Assembly: GCA_964609455.1 (NCBI GenBank)
Contig: CAZSRD010000001.1
Span: 70,920 to 134,919 of the forward strand
DNA length: 64,000 bases
Direction: 5' to 3'
Source of the DNA: an uncultured Methanosarcinales archaeon
GTDB taxonomy: Archaea; Nanobdellota; Nanobdellia; Woesearchaeales; JACPBV01
A program made the position numbers and the translations under genes. Position 1 is the stretch's first letter; each line of letters opens with the position of its first letter. Of this stretch, positions 26,993-53,026 are shown one piece after another. The notes below the pieces were generated by a model. It was given only the letters and a program-made list of their open reading frames with translations. It was not told the DNA's origin and made no database searches.

Positions 26993-27499
26993 ATGATTTA
27001 TATAAAATATAAAACGATTCCGAGGGAAACAACTATGATGCAGAAAAAAGATTTGTTAATTTTGTCAAATTTGCGAAAAGACGCAAGAATGTCTTTAACG
27101 AATATGAGCAAAGCAACACACATACCTATATCAACTATATTTGACAGGCTGAGGATGCATGAAGTGGGTTTGATAAAGAAACATACCAGCCTTATTGATT
27201 TTGAGAAATTGGGCTTTAACACAAGGGCTAATGTATGCATTAAGGTGGATAAGAGTAAAAGAGAAGAATTGAGAGAGCATTTATCAAAGCACCAGAATGT
27301 TAATTCTGTGTTTAAGATAAACAATGGCTATGACTTTCTTGCAGAGGTTGTTTTTCACAATATAAAAGATTTAGAGGAGTTTATGGAGAACCTTGAAGAG
27401 AGGTTTAATGTAACACAGACGCAGGTTTATTATCTGATAGAAGACATTAAAAGAGAGGAGTTTATGGCTGATCCTTTGTTAATGGATTTAATTAACTGA
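26993..27499 (+). CDS. Lrp/AsnC-family transcriptional regulator
   Basis: The HTH LLILSNLRKDARMSLTNMSKATHIPISTIFDRL and a C-terminal RAM domain. The true start is likely at MMQKK. Confidence 0.7.
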   Translation: MIYIKYKTIPRETTMMQKKDLLILSNLRKDARMSLTNMSKATHIPISTIFDRLRMHEVGLIKKHTSLIDFEKLGFNTRANVCIKVDKSKREELREHLSKHQNVNSVFKINNGYDFLAEVVFHNIKDLEEFMENLEERFNVTQTQVYYLIEDIKREEFMADPLLMDLIN

Positions 27500-27576: not shown

Positions 27577-28014
27577 ATGCTTACAGAAAAAGAGCTGTTG
27601 ATATTGTCTCATTTGAGGGAAAACTCGAGGAAGACGATAACAGATATAGCAAAAGAAACAGGAATACCAAAATCTACGGTTTTTGATAATATAAATAAAT
27701 TAAAAACAAAAGTGATTAAAAAGAATGTTTCATTGCTTGATTTTTCAAAGGTAGGGTATGGATTAAGGGTGAACTTCGCTATAAAAGCAAAAAATAAAAA
27801 AGAAGCCAGAGAATTCCTGGCAAACCATAAAAATGTTAACTCAGTTTATAAAACAACAAACAATTTTGACTTTTATATTGAAGCTATTTTTAAGAATATG
27901 AAGGAAATGCATGATTTCAAAGACGAACTGGATAATTTAGGCATTAAAAGAAGCGAAGAGCATTTTTTGATAGATGATATCAAAAGAGAGGGATTTATGC
28001 TTAGGAAGGAATAA
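27577..28014 (+). CDS. Lrp/AsnC-family transcriptional regulator (tandem paralog)
   Basis: ELLILSHLRENSRKTITDIAKETGIPKSTVFDNINKL plus a RAM domain. 145 aa. Confidence 0.75.
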   Translation: MLTEKELLILSHLRENSRKTITDIAKETGIPKSTVFDNINKLKTKVIKKNVSLLDFSKVGYGLRVNFAIKAKNKKEAREFLANHKNVNSVYKTTNNFDFYIEAIFKNMKEMHDFKDELDNLGIKRSEEHFLIDDIKREGFMLRKE

Positions 28015-46281: not shown

Positions 46282-47061
46282 ATGCCTAAGGCGTTAGTAA
46301 TATTTGGCTCTAAATCAGATGCGCCTGTTTACAAGGAGATAATGCATGGATTGAAAAAAGAAGGTGTTGAAGCAGAATTAAGGATAAGCTCTGCGCATAG
46401 GACACCTGAAGAGCTTGAGCAGATAATAAGTTCTGATTATGACCTTATAATTGCAGGTGCTGGGTTAAGCGCTGCTCTGCCTGGTGTGATTGCTTCTAAA
46501 ACTATAAAACCAGTAATTGGCGTTCCTTGCCACGGCAGCTATCAAGGCCTAGACGCTTTGCTTTCTATAATGCAGATGCCTTCTGGGATACCTGTCTTGA
46601 GTGTTGGTGTCAATGCTGTTGATGCAGCTGTTAAGAACGCTACTAAAATACTGGGACAACATTCTACTGTTAATTTAATAAGCGAGGCGCCTAGTGAGGC
46701 CTTGAAAAAAGCAAAAGCAATCTTTGAGGAGTTTGACATTAAATTTAGTGAATCTGAAGGGCCAGAAGAGGATGGCATAAATATCGAATTTATAAGTTTA
46801 GATGAGCCAATACCTGAAAAGGAGCAATTAGTCATTTACTGCCCAGTATTGCTAAAAGATGATGACAAAGCAGAAGCTGCTTTGAATGTTTTAAAGCATA
46901 GTACACATGGCTTATGGGTGGGGCTGAATAATGGCAAGAATGCTGCTCTGGCTGCAATTCAAATTCTTAATGTGGGCAATAAGTATACACTTAAGCTAGA
47001 GGAGTTTAGGGATAAATTAAAGAGCCAGGTTAAGGAAAGCGATAAAGAACTTCAACAGTAA
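46282..47061 (+). CDS. purE: PurE (AIR carboxylase / N5-CAIR mutase) with a degenerate PurE-like C-terminal repeat
   Basis: The first ~150 aa have ALVIFGSKSDAPV and SAHRTPEEL. The C-terminal ~100 aa repeat a weaker PurE-like pattern (VGLNNGKNAALAAIQIL). 259 aa. Confidence 0.75.
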   Translation: MPKALVIFGSKSDAPVYKEIMHGLKKEGVEAELRISSAHRTPEELEQIISSDYDLIIAGAGLSAALPGVIASKTIKPVIGVPCHGSYQGLDALLSIMQMPSGIPVLSVGVNAVDAAVKNATKILGQHSTVNLISEAPSEALKKAKAIFEEFDIKFSESEGPEEDGINIEFISLDEPIPEKEQLVIYCPVLLKDDDKAEAALNVLKHSTHGLWVGLNNGKNAALAAIQILNVGNKYTLKLEEFRDKLKSQVKESDKELQQ

Positions 47062-47075
47062 GGAGGCTGGTTAGT

Positions 47076-48044
47076 GTGGCATCTGACAAGGGTATTAAGC
47101 AACAAATAAATTTTACATTAAATGAGACTAATTTTAAAGGTTTAGGTGAAAGAAAAAAAGGCAAGGTCAGGGATGTTTATGTTTCTGATGATAAAATATT
47201 TTTAATAGCAACTGACAGGCAAAGCGCTTTTGACAGAATATTGGCCAGAATTCCATTTAAAGGGCAGGTTTTAACACAGACATCTGTTTTTTGGTTTGAA
47301 CAGACAAAAGATATTATTGCTAACCATGTTATTGATGTCCCTGATCCAAATGTTGTTGTTTGCAAAAAATTGAAGGTATTTCCTGTTGAGGTTGTTGTAA
47401 GAGGATATATAACTGGCGTAACATCAACAGCAGCATGGACAGCTTACGCTAAAGGTGAGAGGAATTTTTGCGGGAATGTTTTGCCTGAAGGCCTGAAGAA
47501 GAACCAAAAGTTTGATACACCCATTATAACTCCAACAACAAAATCTGATGAGCATGATGAGAAGATTTCAGGAGAAGAGATTGTTAAAAAAGGATTAATG
47601 AGCAAGGAGCAATGGAGGCTTGTTTCTGCTAAATCTCTTGAATTGTTTGATAGAGGAACTGAGATTGCTGCAAAGAACGGCTTAATCCTAGTAGACACAA
47701 AATACGAATTTGGCTACGATTCCGAAGGGAATATATTCTTGATAGATGAGATTCATACACCTGATAGTTCTCGTTTTTGGATTAAAGAAACTTATGAAGA
47801 AAGGATTGCAAAAGGCGAAGAGCCAGAGAACATTGACAAGGAATTCTTAAGGTTGTGGTTTACAGAGCATTGTGACCCATATAAGGATAAGGTTTTGCCA
47901 GAGGCTCCTGAAGAGTTGGTAATTGAGTTGAGCAAAAGGTATATCCAGCTTTATGAGATGATAACAGGGAATAAGTTCAAGACTAAGGTTGGAGATGTTT
48001 CTAAAAGGATTGAGGAGAATTTGAAAAATGCAGGCTACATTTAA
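47076..48044 (+). CDS. purC: SAICAR synthetase
   Basis: The motifs KGKVRDVYVSDDKIFLIATDRQSAFD and LVDTKYEFG. GTG start. Confidence 0.9.
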   Translation: MASDKGIKQQINFTLNETNFKGLGERKKGKVRDVYVSDDKIFLIATDRQSAFDRILARIPFKGQVLTQTSVFWFEQTKDIIANHVIDVPDPNVVVCKKLKVFPVEVVVRGYITGVTSTAAWTAYAKGERNFCGNVLPEGLKKNQKFDTPIITPTTKSDEHDEKISGEEIVKKGLMSKEQWRLVSAKSLELFDRGTEIAAKNGLILVDTKYEFGYDSEGNIFLIDEIHTPDSSRFWIKETYEERIAKGEEPENIDKEFLRLWFTEHCDPYKDKVLPEAPEELVIELSKRYIQLYEMITGNKFKTKVGDVSKRIEENLKNAGYI

Positions 48045-48792
48045 ACAAACAGCTATCAAAGCGGCAAAAGAAGCTGGAAAGATACAATTAAGGTATTTTG
48101 CCAAGGGAATTAAAAAGAGCAGGAAAAAGGATGATAGTTTCGTTACTAAGGCGGATATTGAGAGCAGTGATAAAATAAGGCATATAATTCTTAAAAGGTT
48201 TCCAGAGCACAATATTTTATGCGAGGAGTATGGAAAAAGCAATAGGAAATCAGGCTATAAGTGGATTATTGACCCTTTAGATGGGACGCATAATTTTATT
48301 ATGGATAACCCTCTTTTTGGCGCTTCTATTGCACTAGAGCATGAAGGAGAAATTGTATTAGGTGTGATTTACCTGCCTGTTCTAAAAAGATTATATTATG
48401 CGGAAAAAGGAAAAGGGGCTTTTTGTAATGGAAAACGAATTAAGGTTAACAATGAAACTGATTTAAAGAAATGCTTGTTTATGTTTGATGCTAAGTTAAG
48501 AAGCAAAACTGATATGAAAATACGGATACTCAAAAAATTAGCAAAGTTAACATGGCGCTTTAGGGTTTATGGCGCTGCTGTTTACCATAGTTTGTTAGTT
48601 GCAGAGGGCAAAGCTGGGCTTAACATTGATTTTGACTCAAACTCGTGGGATCATTCTGCTGCTTTATTGATGGTTGAAGAAGCAGGCGGCAAAGTAACTG
48701 ATATTAACGGGAAAAAATGGAATCCTTATATGGAAGATTATATTGCTTCTAATGGGAAGATCCATAGTAAGGTTTTAAACGTTCTTAAATAG
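48028..48792 (+). CDS. Inositol-monophosphatase / FBPase-family phosphatase
   Basis: WIIDPLDGTHNF metal-binding motif and a C-terminal WDHSAA. 254 aa. Overlaps purC by 17 nt. Confidence 0.75.
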   Translation: MQATFKQTAIKAAKEAGKIQLRYFAKGIKKSRKKDDSFVTKADIESSDKIRHIILKRFPEHNILCEEYGKSNRKSGYKWIIDPLDGTHNFIMDNPLFGASIALEHEGEIVLGVIYLPVLKRLYYAEKGKGAFCNGKRIKVNNETDLKKCLFMFDAKLRSKTDMKIRILKKLAKLTWRFRVYGAAVYHSLLVAEGKAGLNIDFDSNSWDHSAALLMVEEAGGKVTDINGKKWNPYMEDYIASNGKIHSKVLNVLK

Positions 48793-48934
48793 TAAACAAT
48801 ATATATAATGTATTACAGTAAAGTTTATAAATAATGAACACTTCACTTATTCTATTCGTATCACATTCATAAAAACCACCAATAGAGGTTTTAATAAAAA
48901 AACCTACTCCCAAAAGAGATACGGGTTCTTTATT

Positions 48935-50644
48935 ATGTTGCCTTTGTTGGTGGTTTTTTATGAAATTAAAGAGGTAGATTATAAGATGGAACTATCAAAA
49001 CTGTTTACAAAGAAGAATATTGAAATTCTTAGGTTATTAGAAGAAGAATCTATGCACATAAGAGAGATTGCTGAAAAATTAAATATTTCTCCTGCTAAAG
49101 TGCATGGCACTATACAGCTTTTTAAGAAAAATAATATTATAAACATTATTGATGATAAGAACAGAAAGATCATAAAGCTAAATAAAAACAACAAGGTGCT
49201 TAAGAATATTGAGAATTTGATCAACCTAAAAGAAGGGGTATCAGGAGAAGAAGAGGACATAGCTTTGTTTGATAATATTTCCCCTTTAGACTTTAGGTAT
49301 TACGGGAGAAGTGATAAGGTTAAAGAGAAGTTAAGGCCTTACCTTTCTGAAGAGGGTGCTGTTCGTTACTTAGCCAGGGTTGAAGCTGCTTTGACAAGGA
49401 CATTAGCTAAGAAAGGGGTTTGCAGTAAAGCTATTGCTGACGAAGTTTCAAGAGCTTGCCACCAGATTACTGCTCAAGAGGTTTATTTGGAGGAAGACAA
49501 AATAAAGCATAATATCAGAGCTCTGGCTAATTCCATCCGTAAGAGGGTTTCTGATAAGGCTAAGCCTTATGTCCATTTTACAACAACATCCCATGATATA
49601 ATATGCACGGCAGATGCATCTCGCTTTAAGGATTTTTCAAACGAAGTTTTGATTCCTGCTTTAATCAATTTTGAAAGAACATTAATTTATTTGGCCTTAC
49701 GTGAAAAAAATACATTACAGATTGGAAGAACACACGGGCAGCATGCAGAGCCTATTACATTTGGCTTTGCAATCGCACAATATGTTTCAAGAGTTGGGGC
49801 CAGGATAAGGGCGGTTCATAAGGCTGCTAATAACTTACGCGGTAAAATTGCAGGGGCTGTTGGAGCATATAATGCTTCTTCGCTATTTTTTGCAGATCCA
49901 GAAGAGTTTGAAAGAGCGGTTTTAGCTGAATTAAAGCTTAAGCCTTCTCCGATCTCTACCCAGGTTGTAGAAGCAGAGTATATGGCTGATTATTTTCATT
50001 CAATAATCTCTTGTTTTGGTGTCCTGGCGAATTTGGCAGATGACATGAGGCATTTGCAAAGAAGCGAGATAGCTGAAGTTGCAGAAGCATTTGGAGAAAA
50101 ACAGGTTGGAAGCTCTACAATGCCGCATAAGAGGAATCCAATCAACTTTGAAAATGTTAAATCCATGTGGAAAGAGTTCATGCCAAGGATGAGCACCATA
50201 TATATGGACCAGATATGCGAACATCAACGAGATTTGACAAATTCAGCTTCATCAAGATTTGTTACGGAGATTTTGGCTGGTTTGTATGTTTCAGTTACAA
50301 GGCTGAACAAAACAATGAGCAAACTGGTAGTTGATAAACCAAATTTGAAAAAGAATTTTGATATGAATAAAGAGATGATAACAGCAGAGCCTGCATATAT
50401 TTTATTAGCAGCACATAATCATCCTGATGCGCATGAATATGTAAGGAAGCTTACATTGGAAAGCCAGCAAACAGGAAAGCCATTTAGGGAGCTTTTGCTA
50501 AGAGATCCTGGATTGAAGCCTTATTTAGATAAGTTCAGTAAAAGGCAGATTGAAATTTTAAAGAATCCTGAAAGGTATACGGGGATTGCTGCTAAAAAAG
50601 TAGAGAATATATGCGGCTTTTGGAAGAAAGAGCTGAAGATTTAA
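48935..50644 (+). CDS. purB: Adenylosuccinate lyase with an N-terminal ~100-aa winged-HTH domain fused in frame
   Basis: The wHTH is IEILRLLEEESMHIREIAEKLNISPAKVHGTIQLFKK. The PurB part runs from LDFRYYG through the fumarate-lyase signature GSSTMPHKRNP. 569 aa. A possible alternative start is MELSKL at 48986. Confidence 0.8.
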   Translation: MLPLLVVFYEIKEVDYKMELSKLFTKKNIEILRLLEEESMHIREIAEKLNISPAKVHGTIQLFKKNNIINIIDDKNRKIIKLNKNNKVLKNIENLINLKEGVSGEEEDIALFDNISPLDFRYYGRSDKVKEKLRPYLSEEGAVRYLARVEAALTRTLAKKGVCSKAIADEVSRACHQITAQEVYLEEDKIKHNIRALANSIRKRVSDKAKPYVHFTTTSHDIICTADASRFKDFSNEVLIPALINFERTLIYLALREKNTLQIGRTHGQHAEPITFGFAIAQYVSRVGARIRAVHKAANNLRGKIAGAVGAYNASSLFFADPEEFERAVLAELKLKPSPISTQVVEAEYMADYFHSIISCFGVLANLADDMRHLQRSEIAEVAEAFGEKQVGSSTMPHKRNPINFENVKSMWKEFMPRMSTIYMDQICEHQRDLTNSASSRFVTEILAGLYVSVTRLNKTMSKLVVDKPNLKKNFDMNKEMITAEPAYILLAAHNHPDAHEYVRKLTLESQQTGKPFRELLLRDPGLKPYLDKFSKRQIEILKNPERYTGIAAKKVENICGFWKKELKI

Positions 50645-50711: not shown

Positions 50712-51830
50712 ATGGATATAGATTACAAGAAAACAAAGGTTTTCTCTAATCCGGTAAAGCCCTCACAAGGTTCGGACTTTACGGATTACCAAAAAAGAGA
50801 AGCCAAAGCAGTTAGCGCTATAAAGAAAGCTATACCTTCTTCTTTAAAGAAAAATATGGTTTATGGTGAAGGGATGTTTGCTGAGCTGTATTCTAATGAT
50901 AAGGTATTTCCTAATCATTTAATGGCTTGTGCTATTGATGGCGTTGGAACTAAATTATTGTTAGCTGAGGAGATGGAAAAGTATGATACTATTGGCATTG
51001 ATTTAGTTGCTATGTCTGCGAATGATTTGGCTACTCTTGGGAAGGTTTCTCCGTTTTTGTTTATTGATTATTTTGCTGTTCAAAATGAATTTGAGGAGAT
51101 GGGTTTAACTGGAGACTTGATGAAAGGGATTGTTAAGGGATTAGAGATGTGCGATGTTGGAGACATCTTAAGAAGCTCTATACATGTTAATATTGGAAAA
51201 GGTGAAACTGCCTCTGTTGATGAGATGGTAAAAGGCTTAAAGCCAGGAATGGGATTTGATATCGCTGGCGGTTTAATTGGTTTTATGAAAAAAGAAGATC
51301 TTAATACTTCTGTAAAAGTTGGAGATAAGATAATTGCTTTGAAAAGCTCTGGAGCACATTCAAATGGCTATACTGACTTAAGGTTGAAGTTTTTAAAAAA
51401 TAGAAAAATAGAGGATAAGTTTGATGGCTCTACAATTGGAGAGATTTTATTAGAGCCAACGAGGATATATTCTAAAACAGTTGCTGCTATTGCTGATAAG
51501 GTTAAATTAGTAGGAATTAACAATACTGGATATGGGCTAAAGAACCTGAATAGGGTAAAAGGGGTGCAGTTTGAGATTAATGCTCCTATTAAGCCGCAGC
51601 CGATATTTGAGCTTGTGCAGAAAGAAACTAAGTTTTCAGATGAAGATATGTACAGGAAGTTTAATATGGGCCAGGGTTTCTTTTTGATAGTTGATTCAAA
51701 AGATGCTGACAATGCTGTTTCTATTGCCTCTAAGTTTAAGGATGAAGCTAAAGTAATTGGAGAAGTTAAGAAAGGAAGTGGAACTGTTCTTTTAAAAGAT
51801 AATAAAAAGATATTGTTTGAAGGGTATTAA
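50712..51830 (+). CDS. purM: Phosphoribosylformylglycinamidine cyclo-ligase (AIR synthetase)
   Basis: AIDGVGTKLLLAEEM and the PurM N/C domain pattern. 372 aa. Confidence 0.85.
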   Translation: MDIDYKKTKVFSNPVKPSQGSDFTDYQKREAKAVSAIKKAIPSSLKKNMVYGEGMFAELYSNDKVFPNHLMACAIDGVGTKLLLAEEMEKYDTIGIDLVAMSANDLATLGKVSPFLFIDYFAVQNEFEEMGLTGDLMKGIVKGLEMCDVGDILRSSIHVNIGKGETASVDEMVKGLKPGMGFDIAGGLIGFMKKEDLNTSVKVGDKIIALKSSGAHSNGYTDLRLKFLKNRKIEDKFDGSTIGEILLEPTRIYSKTVAAIADKVKLVGINNTGYGLKNLNRVKGVQFEINAPIKPQPIFELVQKETKFSDEDMYRKFNMGQGFFLIVDSKDADNAVSIASKFKDEAKVIGEVKKGSGTVLLKDNKKILFEGY

Positions 51831-52840
51831 CCCCCACCAATTACTGTTCTAGCTATATACTTAACAGAAGATGCCATTGCCTTCATGTTTTCCACTATTT
51901 TTGCTGTAGCTGCGCATGCTGGCCTAAAATTACAAACCCCCTTCCCATCTCCGTTTGTAAATTTTAAATCTTTATGGTAATGTTTTTCAAAGAAGCTGTC
52001 ACATGCAACTATTATTTCCTTGTTTCTCTTTTCTACTTCAAGCGCTATTTTTTCGTCATTGGTGTGATAAGATCTCATAACATCAAAGTAGCTTTGTTTG
52101 ATACTGTTAAAAAGAGTTTTCATCTCTTCACTCCACTTTCCACTTACTTTTGTATCACCAATATACCTGCATATTCTTTTAGTATTGTCAGCTATTCTTT
52201 CTATCATTGTTGTAACTGTATGGTCTGAGTGCAGCCTTAATGAGTTGGTTTGCAGTGAATTTGCTATTCTGACGTCTTTCAAGGCCCCCCTAATAATCCT
52301 TGAGGTAAGAAAATGCAGCCTGTTAACATCTTCATCTCTGTGGATTATACTTTCGGCATCTTCTTTTCCGCAAAAACAATTAAAAGTATCCTCGAGCATT
52401 GCTCTTGCAATATTGTCCATCCTTCTTATTAATGTTTTAATTGGAATCTCTTTTATGTCGATTAGATCTTTTGCAACAATCCTTGTTGAACTTTGGTTTA
52501 TTATCTCTAACCCAGATAAATTTTGAAGCATTGATTTTATTTCTGGAGCTTTGTTTTTAAGGTCTTTAGAAATAACCTCTATCATGTTATAATTATTAAG
52601 GTATGCTGATACGATTTCTGTTCTTAATATGTCTGGGCTTTTGTTTTCTGCCTCAATAACTATTGATTTTGGCTCTTCTTTCAGTGTTTCTGTGCTATTT
52701 GTTTTTAAGAATAAGCCGTCTTTTGCTTCTTCTATAGAAATCAAATCTCCTTTTTGTAATTTGTTCTTCTCTACCCATGGTTTTGGCAAGGACAAAACAT
52801 AAGAGTTTTTACCAAATCTGATTAATTTCCTCATATTCAT
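51827..52840 (-). CDS. AbrB/SpoVT-type swapped-hairpin domain fused to PhoU-like repeats (archaeal phosphate-uptake-regulator-like)
   Basis: N-terminus MRKLIRFGKNSYVLSLPKPWVEKNKLQKGDLI is an AbrB-like fold. The start is taken at MNMRKL. The track ORF's 24 extra codons were rejected. Confidence 0.65.
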   Translation of the reverse strand: MNMRKLIRFGKNSYVLSLPKPWVEKNKLQKGDLISIEEAKDGLFLKTNSTETLKEEPKSIVIEAENKSPDILRTEIVSAYLNNYNMIEVISKDLKNKAPEIKSMLQNLSGLEIINQSSTRIVAKDLIDIKEIPIKTLIRRMDNIARAMLEDTFNCFCGKEDAESIIHRDEDVNRLHFLTSRIIRGALKDVRIANSLQTNSLRLHSDHTVTTMIERIADNTKRICRYIGDTKVSGKWSEEMKTLFNSIKQSYFDVMRSYHTNDEKIALEVEKRNKEIIVACDSFFEKHYHKDLKFTNGDGKGVCNFRPACAATAKIVENMKAMASSVKYIARTVIGGG

Positions 52841-53026
52841 TTTTACCCCCCCCAAGTTTATTTTATAAAATATACAAATTATATATAAAAGTATATACCA
52901 TAAATTTTGCATATATACTATATATAATATATGGTAAGGTTATATATAAATGTTTCGCCAATATTAAGGTTAGCTGATAAGAAAGGCGGATTAGTTTTTA
53001 TCTGATTGAATGTGGAGGTGAAAAAA

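What the first reader, a model, noticed from the sequence alone, without database searches (positions are those of the whole stretch)
48935..50644. In-frame fusion of a winged-HTH DNA-binding domain to adenylosuccinate lyase (PurB)
The ORF is continuous for 569 aa. The first ~100 aa have a clear wHTH pattern (IEILRLLEEESMHIREIAEKLNISPAKVHGTIQLF) and the remainder is full-length PurB with the fumarate-lyase signature.

An enzyme-regulator fusion sitting inside the purine operon suggests autoregulation of purine genes by a moonlighting enzyme (analogous to PutA or BirA). This is not a standard PurB architecture.
Basis: partly seen in the sequence, partly recalled or inferred. Interest (0 to 1): 0.6.

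Follow-up and report, generated by a model that had tools for sequence, protein, structure and literature searches.

The report
DNA-binding domain fused to PurB enzyme
In a group of tiny uncultured archaea (Woesearchaeota), the purine-synthesis enzyme adenylosuccinate lyase always carries a built-in DNA-binding domain, and its own promoter always carries two matching binding-site-like boxes, so the enzyme most likely switches off its own gene; this would be a new example of a known kind of enzyme-regulator hybrid.

Summary
ORF 48935..50644 is continuous; the true start is probably ATG 48986, giving 552 aa. [quoted passage not shown] It is not a frameshift or assembly artefact. The identical protein sits on six contigs from separate assemblies. 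All 120 best database clusters and all 38 PurB-type species-level genomes (Woesearchaeota/Nanoarchaeia) carry the fusion.

New here: the gene's promoter is very conserved. A 17-bp pseudo-palindrome, GTTC-N9-RAAC, lies 41-43 bp upstream of the TATA box. A second copy, in reverse orientation, overlaps the TATA box itself. This design is essentially exclusive to genes encoding this wHTH family. It also follows the wHTH when it is stand-alone or fused to other proteins.

Best reading: an ArsR/SmtB-like autorepressor module fused to PurB that represses its own promoter.

No such boxes occur upstream of any other purine or folate gene in the window. Pathway-wide regulation and metabolite sensing of the PutA/BirA type therefore remain unsupported or untested. 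It is a new member of the "trigger enzyme" kind, of moderate interest.

The parts
48781..48797 (+). Distal operator-like box, GTTCTTAAATAGTAAAC (GTTC-N9-AAAC). With 3-nt flanks it spans 48778-48800. It overlaps the last codons and stop of the upstream IMPase-family gene.
   Evidence: It scores 27.0 on the distal-box matrix and is the only strong site in 64 kb. The leave-window-out score is 25.7. The same box lies at -41 to -43 from the TATA box in 26 of 37 loci, including loci with a different upstream gene.
48824..48833 (+). TATA box TTTATAAATA, preceded by a purine-rich BRE-like AAAG (48820-48823).
   Evidence: It is an exact match in nearly all wHTH-gene promoters. Other TATA-like boxes in the window vary in sequence. 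That it is an archaeal BRE/TATA element is inferred from the established archaeal promoter consensus.
48823..48839 (-). Proximal operator-like box, GTTTATAAATAATGAAC. Its reverse complement is GTTC-N9-AAAC. It embeds the TATA box and ends in the conserved TGAAC.
   Evidence: The matrix built from distal boxes alone scores this element at a median of +10.0 across 39 wHTH promoters. At 230 other TATA-like sites the median is -19.9 and the maximum 5.1. For TATA boxes 12-40 nt upstream of ORF starts, wHTH genes have the TNAAC box 26 times and lack it 3 times; all other genes have it once and lack it 46 times.
48866..48964 (+). Leader hairpin of about 100 nt between the conserved promoter and the start codon. 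It is a lineage-specific insertion and contains the spurious upstream ATG at 48935.
   Evidence: The fold has dG -44.6 kcal/mol and z = -5.85. It has no Rfam family and is unique in the window. It occurs on only one other metagenome contig. Most relatives have only 17-34 nt between TATA and ATG. Other long leaders carry unrelated hairpins.
48971..48975 (+). Shine-Dalgarno-like GAGGT, 10 nt upstream of ATG 48986.
   Evidence: Read directly from the sequence. Similar GAGGTG elements precede the ATG in several relatives with short leaders.
48986..50644 (+). wHTH-PurB gene: 552 aa plus stop. The mechanical ORF starts at 48935.
48986..49225 (+). wHTH domain, residues 1-80. Elements: H1 9-20, H2 25-31, recognition helix 36-48 (nt 49091-49129), beta-wing 52-65, C-terminal helix from residue 70.
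   Evidence: AlphaFold2 models are confident for this part (pLDDT 85-94 in the core). Best Foldseek matches in the PDB are ArsR/SmtB-family dimers, TM 0.72-0.78. Residues T8, N11, H24, R26, S35, V39, K58 and N59 are invariant, and ISPAKVHxTIQLFKK is near-invariant.
49226..49270 (+). Acidic, poorly conserved, disordered linker, about residues 81-95.
   Evidence: pLDDT is below 50 for residues 81-92. This is the least conserved segment of the protein.
49271..50641 (+). Adenylosuccinate lyase (PurB) part, residues 96-552, with catalytic motifs intact.
   Evidence: Lyase_1, ASL_C and ADSL_C are found, and TIGR00928 is covered end to end. It aligns to T. maritima PurB 1C3U, with KHN, TTSHD, GRTHGQHAEP and GSSTMPHKRNP conserved. 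These motifs are invariant in 48 homologues.

Best explanation
This is a genuine fusion, present throughout a clade of Woesearchaeota/Nanoarchaeia. It joins an ArsR/SmtB-like wHTH autorepressor module to a catalytically competent adenylosuccinate lyase.

The wHTH recognises a 17-bp pseudo-palindrome, GTTC-N9-RAAC. One copy overlaps the TATA box of the gene's own promoter. A second lies about 42 bp (four helical turns) upstream. Occupying the TATA-overlapping site would block TBP/TFB or RNA polymerase, giving negative feedback on purB transcription. Because every enzyme molecule carries the DNA-binding domain, the feedback reads the concentration of the enzyme itself.

Promoter, operator and wHTH behave as a portable cassette. 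In related organisms the cassette sits in front of, or is fused to, unrelated genes.

**Shown:** the fusion, its conservation, the wHTH fold, intact catalytic motifs, the two-box promoter, and its exclusive association with this wHTH family.

**Inferred:** that this wHTH is what binds the boxes; that the effect is repression; and that the PurB homotetramer (known for the enzyme family) presents two wHTH pairs able to bridge both boxes.
For: 1. **The fusion is real and conserved:**
2. **The wHTH is under purifying selection:** mean pairwise identity is 63%, against 73% for PurB and 58% for the linker. The recognition helix and wing tip are near-invariant.
3. **The fold matches DNA-binding repressors:** the best PDB matches are ArsR/SmtB dimers (HlyU, CadC, SmtB, CzrA, NolR), TM 0.72-0.78, including the C-terminal dimerisation helix.
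4. **The promoter carries two related boxes:** the distal box is at -41 to -43 in 26 of 37 loci. The distal-only matrix recovers the TATA-overlapping box at a median of +10.0, against -19.9 at 230 control TATA sites.
5. **The boxes are specific:** 26 with / 3 without for wHTH genes, against 1 with / 46 without for other genes. In the window, the purB upstream region scores 25.7 and the background 95th percentile is 4.3.
6. **The boxes travel with the wHTH, not with PurB:** the same promoter precedes stand-alone wHTH genes upstream of Nnr (L040, L041), a wHTH-NnrD fusion (L045), wHTH upstream of a Na+/H+ exchanger (L046), a wHTH-MNT/HEPN pair (L051) and wHTH-PEP-utiliser (L052).
7. **The boxes persist when the upstream gene differs**.
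8. **There is precedent:** ArsR/SmtB dimers bind one or two imperfect inverted repeats at promoters, often cooperatively (PMC8790569). Archaeal RbkR is a wHTH-enzyme fusion with predicted autoregulation (PMC5397151).
Against: - There is no experimental DNA-binding data. The link between this wHTH and the boxes is co-occurrence only.
- Variation in the half-site (GAAC/AAAC/TAAC) does not track with any recognition-helix change, so there is no covariation support.
- The upstream half of the proximal box (GTTT) coincides with the generic BRE/TATA junction. Its resemblance to a half-site may be partly incidental.
- In loci where the IMPase gene lies upstream, part of the distal box is coding sequence.
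- The half-site arrangement (GTTC-N9-GAAC) differs from the classical ArsR/SmtB 12-2-12 sites.
- In the window itself, a 152-nt structured leader separates promoter and ATG. Additional or alternative control there is possible.
Confidence: 0.7

Rival explanations
1. It is a metabolite-sensing trigger enzyme in the strict PutA/BirA/RbkR sense. Binding of substrate or product (SAICAR, adenylosuccinate, AICAR, AMP, fumarate) in the PurB active site changes the geometry or oligomeric state of the wHTH pairs. purB transcription, and perhaps distant purine genes, would then respond to purine-pathway flux. This refines the best explanation and does not exclude it.
For: - The enzyme domain is intact and the wHTH is tethered to it in every genome of the clade.
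- The gene lies in a purine/folate cluster.
- The box spacing of about 42 bp is tightly kept in PurB-type loci. It varies in most non-PurB contexts. That pattern fits a constraint imposed by the PurB oligomer.
- RbkR, BirA, NadR and PutA are precedents (PMC5397151).
Against: - Stand-alone 82-91-aa family members have no sensor domain yet use the same promoter design. DNA binding therefore does not need an enzyme domain.
- No boxes occur upstream of any other purine or folate gene in the window.
- The linker is disordered and poorly conserved. That is not what an allosteric coupling element would be expected to look like.
Confidence: 0.25
2. The wHTH does not act as a transcription factor here. 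It might serve oligomerisation, bind RNA or protein, or tether the enzyme to the nucleoid. The conserved promoter boxes would then be bound by a different regulator or be core-promoter features.
For: - wHTH folds can serve non-DNA roles (established knowledge).
- No direct binding data exist.
- No covariation was seen between the recognition helix and the half-site.
Against: - The boxes are absent from 46 of 47 other promoter-positioned TATA boxes.
- They follow the wHTH into at least six unrelated gene contexts.
- The most conserved residues are in the recognition helix, the wing tip (K58, N59) and a basic N-terminal arm (FTKKN).
- The closest folds are all DNA-binding repressors.
Confidence: 0.1
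3. It is an artefact. Two adjacent genes, a small regulator and purB, were joined by a sequencing or assembly frameshift or a lost stop codon in this one genome.
For: Stand-alone wHTH genes do exist next to enzyme genes in relatives (L040, L041). One annotation pipeline also called some PurBs without the wHTH.
Against: - The identical protein is found on six contigs from separate assemblies.
- All 120 top clusters are fusions, as are all 38 PurB-type species genomes, including a single-cell genome (L042).
- The short calls are start-trimming artefacts.
- The only two interruptions are a scaffold gap and a poly-A slip.
Confidence: 0.01

Closest known systems
RbkR, the archaeal riboflavin kinase/regulator (Rodionova et al. 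2017, PMC5397151)
   Same: It is archaeal. An N-terminal wHTH is fused to an active enzyme of the pathway. Palindromic operators of 16-20 bp were predicted by comparative genomics. Autoregulation was predicted in many genomes.
   Different: The enzyme, pathway and wHTH family all differ. RbkR controls a multi-gene pathway regulon and senses a pathway metabolite through the kinase domain. Here only the gene's own promoter carries sites in the window, and ligand sensing is untested. RbkR is widespread (Crenarchaeota, Euryarchaeota, Thaumarchaeota), whereas this fusion was seen only in Woesearchaeota/Nanoarchaeia.
Bacterial trigger enzymes with fused DNA-binding domains: BirA, NadR, PutA (Commichau & Stulke concept, as cited in PMC5397151)
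   Same: One polypeptide combines a DNA-binding domain and a working metabolic enzyme. The protein represses genes related to its own pathway.
   Different: Those proteins couple DNA binding to a catalytic intermediate or redox state. BirA uses biotinyl-AMP-driven dimerisation and PutA uses flavin reduction (established knowledge). Nothing here demonstrates such coupling. The module also exists without any enzyme domain.
ArsR/SmtB-family repressors (HlyU, CadC, SmtB, CzrA, NolR)
   Same: They share the fold, including the C-terminal dimerisation helix. They are dimeric, bind imperfect inverted repeats at or over promoters with one or two sites, and are often autoregulated. GAAC/GTTC occurs in their operator cores, for example AATACCTGAACA-GA-TGTTCAAGTATT (PMC8790569).
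   Different: Sequence identity is only 13-22%. Pfam HTH_5 is just below its cut-off (21.6 against 22). The window's domain has no Cys and no alpha3N or alpha5 metal-site motifs (read from the sequence). The half-sites are arranged outward, GTTC-N9-GAAC, not in the 12-2-12 pattern. The domain is fused to an enzyme.
Bacillus subtilis PurR, the purine operon repressor (from my own knowledge; not tested here)
   Same: It is a purine-pathway regulator built from an N-terminal wHTH and a domain homologous to a purine-pathway enzyme (a phosphoribosyltransferase fold).
   Different: The PurR enzyme-like domain is catalytically inactive and senses PRPP, and PurR controls a large pur regulon. Here the enzyme motifs are intact and only self-regulation is indicated. 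There is no sequence relationship.
Antitoxins of toxin-antitoxin modules carrying a DNA-binding domain (for example wHTH-MNT with HEPN)
   Same: Members of this same wHTH family are fused to MNT-type nucleotidyltransferases next to HEPN genes, with the same promoter boxes. In TA modules the DNA-binding domain autorepresses the operon (established knowledge). That matches the role proposed here.
   Different: PurB is a housekeeping biosynthetic enzyme and not an antitoxin. No toxin partner lies at this locus.

Membership tests
Adenylosuccinate lyase (PurB), fumarase/aspartase superfamily | Lyase_1 core plus ASL C-terminal domain(s) | tested here: met
   PF00206 scores 137 bits, PF08328 scores 57.6 bits, and PF10397 scores 31.2 bits, just under its 32.7 cut-off.
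Adenylosuccinate lyase (PurB), fumarase/aspartase superfamily | Signature loop GSSxMPxKxNP with the catalytic Ser, and the catalytic His motifs | tested here: met
   GSSTMPHKRNP, GRTHGQHAEP, TTSHD and KHN align with the corresponding motifs of T. maritima PurB 1C3U. They are invariant in 48 homologues.
Adenylosuccinate lyase (PurB), fumarase/aspartase superfamily | Score above the curated equivalog cut-off (TIGR00928) | tested here: not met
   The score is 290.1 bits against a cut-off of 326.2, although the model is covered 3-435 of 436 and is by far the best hit. This is a divergent archaeal sequence. The purine gene context supports the assignment.
Adenylosuccinate lyase (PurB), fumarase/aspartase superfamily | Catalyses SAICAR to AICAR and adenylosuccinate to AMP; forms a homotetramer | not testable with these tools
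   This needs an enzyme assay and SEC-MALS or a structure.
PF25212 (HVO_A0114) wHTH family | Score above Pfam's gathering threshold | tested here: met
   31.9 bits against 27.6, residues 19-81. Many homologues carry the same precomputed hit.
ArsR/SmtB family of metalloregulatory repressors | alpha1-alpha2-alpha3-alphaR-beta-beta-alpha5 winged-helix fold | tested here: met
   The top 12 Foldseek PDB matches, all at E <= 1e-3, are mostly ArsR/SmtB-family proteins, TM 0.65-0.78.
ArsR/SmtB family of metalloregulatory repressors | Sequence-family membership (Pfam HTH_5 / NCBIfam HTH_metalloreg cut-offs) | tested here: not met
   HTH_5 scores 21.6 against 22. NF033788 scores 15-19 bits against 55.
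ArsR/SmtB family of metalloregulatory repressors | Metal- or thiol-sensing ligand residues (alpha3N Cys motif or alpha5 His/Asp/Glu site) | tested here: not met
   The window's residues 1-88 contain no Cys and only H24 and H40, with no recognisable metal-site motif. This was read directly from the sequence.
Trigger enzymes with a fused DNA-binding domain (BirA/NadR/PutA/RbkR type) | DNA-binding domain and catalytically competent enzyme in one polypeptide | tested here: met
   Competence is inferred from intact motifs only.
Trigger enzymes with a fused DNA-binding domain (BirA/NadR/PutA/RbkR type) | Specific operator(s) at its own or pathway promoters | tested here: inconclusive
   Conserved family-specific boxes lie at its own promoter. 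None lie at other purine or folate genes in the window. Binding itself was not demonstrated.
Trigger enzymes with a fused DNA-binding domain (BirA/NadR/PutA/RbkR type) | DNA binding modulated by the enzyme's substrate, product or catalytic state | not testable with these tools
   This needs EMSA or footprinting with and without ligands. The existence of sensor-less stand-alone homologues argues it is not intrinsic to the module.

The most novel reading that the evidence does not exclude
The PurB homotetramer displays four wHTH domains as two dimers. These clamp the two operator boxes, which are spaced four helical turns apart, wrapping or looping the TATA region. Substrate-driven conformational change in PurB would alter that clamp.

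If so, this would be the first purine-pathway trigger enzyme and the first mechanistically defined transcription factor in DPANN archaea. It would sit within a wider system in which a portable promoter-operator-wHTH cassette has repeatedly been placed in front of, or fused to, unrelated genes to give them plug-in autoregulation.
Probability: 0.2. Interest if true: 0.7.

Novelty: new member of a known kind. Interest (0 to 1): 0.5.

Why it matters
- **Regulation in an almost unstudied group.** Very little is known about transcription regulation in DPANN archaea, and archaeal purine regulation is poorly understood. I found no report of this fusion or of the PF25212 family in four targeted searches. 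This gives a concrete protein and a concrete 60-bp DNA target that can be tested in vitro without culturing the organism.
- **A possible new trigger enzyme.** If confirmed, it adds a purine-pathway enzyme to the short list of trigger enzymes. It would illustrate a simple design in which an enzyme measures its own abundance at its own promoter.
- **A reusable regulatory unit.** The portable cassette suggests how small genomes might spread one regulatory module across unrelated genes.
- **An annotation problem.** Pipelines variously call these proteins "lyase family protein", "adenylosuccinate lyase" or "ArsR family transcriptional regulator". They sometimes trim off the wHTH altogether.

Tried and rejected
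1. **Frameshift or assembly artefact.** Rejected.
2. **Unfused PurB in close relatives (P0036, P0054).** Rejected. They are start-trimmed gene calls.
3. **Conserved internal start that would yield free PurB.** Rejected. There is no conserved Met, and no ATG/GTG/TTG position is kept at the junction.
4. **The TATA + TGAAC element as this lineage's generic promoter.** Rejected by two controls.
5. **The distal box as merely the coding end of the IMPase gene.** Rejected. It persists where the upstream genes differ.
6. **A riboswitch or known RNA in the 152-nt leader.** There is no Rfam family; only weak miRNA-precursor-like hits that reflect a long hairpin. Long leaders in other loci hold unrelated hairpins.
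7. **The leader hairpin as an abundant mobile element.** It is unique in the window and occurs on one other metagenome contig.
8. **A purine regulon.** No sites lie upstream of other purine or folate genes. The one intergenic weak hit (28688) precedes a PLP decarboxylase and has no TATA box.
9. **Covariation between recognition helix and half-site.** Uninformative.
10. **Literature on this fusion, PF25212/HVO_A0114, or DPANN enzyme-TF fusions.** Nothing found.
11. **Bacterial sigma-70 promoter and intrinsic-terminator scan.** At or below shuffle expectation, and not relevant to an archaeon.
Full report

Yes. One search lists a continuous ORF at 48935..50644 (+), 569 aa. Pfam places a winged helix-turn-helix at residues 19-81: PF25212 HVO_A0114 scores 31.9 bits (cut-off 27.6) and HTH_24 scores 22.8 (cut-off 21.9). 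A complete adenylosuccinate lyase follows: Lyase_1 at 127-411, then ASL_C and ADSL_C. NCBIfam's purB model TIGR00928 is matched from position 3 to 435 of 436.

The probable true start is ATG 48986 (MELSKLF...), giving 552 aa. Nearly all homologues begin there. GAGGT lies 10 nt upstream. The upstream ATG at 48935 sits inside a very stable leader hairpin.

**2. Is it an artefact?**

No.
- The identical protein is encoded on six contigs from separate assemblies.
- All 120 best clusters in a database of 5.8 billion proteins, at 66-100% identity, are the fusion.
- Three looked shorter. One is cut at the C-terminus but still carries the wHTH. The other two are gene calls that start at an internal Met, and their DNA encodes intact 551- and 555-aa fusions.
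- A scan of one genome per species returned 40 loci, all labelled Woesearchaeota, Nanoarchaeota or Nanoarchaeia. Some carry what looks like a placeholder "Methanosarcinales" label. One is a single-cell genome.
- Of the 38 that encode PurB, 31 are complete in-frame fusions of 547-555 aa and five run off the contig end. One is split by a 10-N scaffold gap and one by a single-base slip in a poly-A run.

**3. Is the N-terminal domain functional?**

It is under purifying selection. Mean pairwise identity is 63% for the wHTH, 73% for PurB and 58% for the linker. Invariant or near-invariant positions cluster in three places:
- a basic N-terminal arm (FTKKN);
- the recognition helix (ISPAKVHxTIQLFKK);
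- the wing tip (K58, N59).

AlphaFold2 models give a confident canonical wHTH with an extra C-terminal helix, then a disordered acidic linker at about residues 81-92, then PurB. The closest solved folds are all dimeric DNA-binding repressors of the ArsR/SmtB family (HlyU, CadC, SmtB, CzrA, NolR), with TM-scores of 0.72-0.78 at 13-22% identity.

The domain does not pass that family's sequence cut-offs, and the window's copy has no metal-site residues. It therefore resembles that family in fold and probable mode of action but is not a member.

**4. Is the enzyme part intact?**

Yes. It aligns with T. maritima PurB (1C3U) with KHN, TTSHD, GRTHGQHAEP and the signature loop GSSTMPHKRNP conserved. 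These motifs are invariant in 48 homologues. No solved PurB covers residues 1-90.

The gene lies in a purine and one-carbon island:
- SHMT, FolD, PurH, FolC-like, PurE, PurC, an IMPase-family gene, wHTH-PurB and PurM-like, in that order;
- PurD and PurF further upstream.

The order PurE-PurC-IMPase-[wHTH-PurB]-PurM-PhoU recurs in relatives, but about a third of the loci have other upstream genes.

**5. The key new finding is the promoter.**

Upstream of the start codon, almost every locus has RAAAG-TTTATAAATA-(A/C)TGAACRTT. This is an archaeal-type BRE/TATA box followed directly by TGAAC.

A second element, GTTC-N9-RAAC, starts 41-43 bp upstream of the TATA box in 26 of 37 loci. The TATA-overlapping element reads GTTT-N9-GAAC, which is the reverse complement of the distal box. 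The two centres are about 42 bp, or four helical turns, apart.

The tests:

| Test | wHTH-gene promoters | Controls |
|---|---|---|
| Matrix built from distal boxes only, scored at the proximal element | median +10.0 (39 promoters) | median -19.9, maximum 5.1 (230 other TATA-like sites) |
| TNAAC box after TATA, TATA-like hits (<=1 mismatch) in wHTH-gene upstream regions vs elsewhere | 31 with / 11 without | 4 with / 223 without |
| TNAAC box after TATA, only TATA boxes 12-40 nt upstream of ORF starts | 26 with / 3 without | 1 with / 46 without |
| Leave-window-out matrix, best score in the window | purB upstream 25.7 | other purine/folate genes -10.4 to +1.1; background 95th percentile 4.3 |

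purM, 67 nt downstream of purB, has its own TATA box without the TGAAC box.

**6. The boxes travel with the wHTH, not with PurB.**

A profile search of the wHTH against 1.84 billion representative proteins found a small family of 251 hits. It includes:
- stand-alone proteins of 80-110 aa;
- fusions to minimal nucleotidyltransferases (MNT);
- a fusion to NAD(P)HX dehydratase;
- a fusion to a PEP-utiliser domain.

I inspected every such gene for which DNA could be fetched (one stand-alone gene, P0136, had no DNA available). All of them carry the same TATA + TGAAC/TAAAC promoter with one or more upstream GTTC-N9-RAAC boxes:
- stand-alone wHTH upstream of a YjeF/Nnr gene (L040, L041);
- wHTH-NnrD fusion (L045);
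- wHTH upstream of a Na+/H+ exchanger (L046);
- wHTH upstream of a 948-aa gene (L049);
- wHTH-MNT next to HEPN (L051);
- wHTH-PEP-utiliser (L052).

This is the strongest available evidence that the wHTH recognises these boxes. It also shows that promoter, operator and wHTH form a portable autoregulatory cassette. In the MNT/HEPN context this matches the well-known autorepression of toxin-antitoxin operons by the antitoxin's DNA-binding domain.

**7. Mechanism**

*Shown:* the fusion, the fold, intact catalytic motifs, and a two-box promoter specific to this family.

*Inferred:*
- The wHTH binds the boxes as dimers.
- Occupying the box that embeds the TATA box blocks TBP/TFB or RNA polymerase, which is the usual mode of archaeal repressors. 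This gives negative autoregulation.
- PurB enzymes are homotetramers (established for the family), so the fusion would present four wHTH domains. These could form two dimers matching two boxes on the same face of the DNA.
- In about half the loci the TATA-to-ATG distance is only 17-23 nt, which implies leaderless mRNAs. The proximal GAAC would then lie between the TATA box and the transcription start.

Whether the catalytic state of PurB modulates binding is unknown. The existence of sensor-less stand-alone relatives and a disordered, variable linker argue that the basic function is plain autorepression. The tightly kept 42-bp spacing in PurB-type loci leaves room for an oligomer-dependent refinement.

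**8. Comparison with known systems**

The closest precedent is archaeal RbkR, a wHTH fused to riboflavin kinase, with palindromic operators and frequent predicted autoregulation (PMC5397151). The same paper lists BirA, NadR and PutA as the other trigger enzymes and includes none from purine metabolism.

ArsR/SmtB repressors provide the structural and operator analogy: dimers that bind one or two imperfect inverted repeats, often with TGAACA/TGTTCA cores (PMC8790569). The half-site arrangement here is different.

Four targeted literature searches found no report of a PurB-wHTH fusion, of PF25212, or of enzyme-fused regulators in DPANN archaea.

**9. Verdict**

Regulation of the purine genes as a set is not supported in this window, and metabolite sensing is untested.

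This is a new member of a known kind (trigger enzymes or enzyme-fused autorepressors). It has an added twist, the portable cassette, that deserves a bench test. Interest: 0.5.

Noticed in passing
window 48866-48964: A hairpin of about 100 nt (dG -44.6 kcal/mol, z -5.85) lies between the conserved promoter and the purB start codon, making a 152-nt leader. Most relatives have 17-34 nt there. It has no Rfam family, is unique in the window, and occurs on only one other metagenome contig. Other long-leader loci (L026, L027, L028, L031, L006) carry unrelated hairpins at the same position. This spot seems to accept hairpin insertions repeatedly, and their function is unknown.
   Followed up: partly
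L001 4418-6073; L002 5758-7425; protein P0016: Public annotation of this protein is inconsistent. Two records start PurB at an internal Met and leave the wHTH-coding 270-nt stretch unannotated. Others name the whole protein 'ArsR family transcriptional regulator' or 'lyase family protein'.
   Followed up: yes
L040 5977-7825; L041 5998-7658; L045 3001-4107: The same wHTH is paired with NAD(P)HX repair (YjeF/Nnr). It is a separate upstream gene in L040 and L041, overlapping the Nnr start in L041, and is fused to the dehydratase half in L045. This is a second, independent enzyme partnership for the module.
   Followed up: partly
proteins P0156 (733 aa), P0162 (818 aa), P0176, P0179, P0180 and others: Some proteins are made of 5-11 tandem copies of a wHTH related to this family. 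Their function and organisms are unknown.
   Followed up: no
window 48028-48792: An inositol-monophosphatase-family gene is a conserved member of the purE-purC-IMPase-purB cluster in many relatives, and its start overlaps the end of purC. Its role in a purine context is unclear; a nucleotide or sugar-phosphate phosphatase is possible.
   Followed up: no
window 46282-47061: PurE is 259 aa. The AIR carboxylase domain covers only residues 5-128, leaving a C-terminal extension of about 130 aa that has only a second, weaker stretch of the same family.
   Followed up: no
window 21260-51830: For a DPANN-type archaeon the window holds an unusually rich set of de novo purine and folate one-carbon genes: PurF, PurD, PurH, PurE, PurC, PurB, PurM-like, SHMT, FolD and FolC-like. 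Many DPANN genomes are described as lacking nucleotide biosynthesis (my own knowledge).
   Followed up: no
window 26993-27499 and 27577-28014: Two adjacent Lrp/AsnC-type regulators (HTH_24 plus an AsnC ligand-binding domain) sit between PurF and a PLP-dependent decarboxylase gene.
   Followed up: no
loci L008, L012, L014, L021, L024, L025, L027-L029, L031, L033, L041, L044 (record titles): Many MAG records carrying this Woesearchaeota-type gene are titled 'uncultured Methanosarcinales archaeon'. This looks like a placeholder or a mislabelled taxonomy.
   Followed up: no
window 51827-52912 (-): An AbrB/MazE-like domain is fused to PhoU. This gene is conserved downstream of purM in several relatives and is convergent with the purine cluster. 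It is another small DNA-binding-domain fusion in the same neighbourhood.
   Followed up: no
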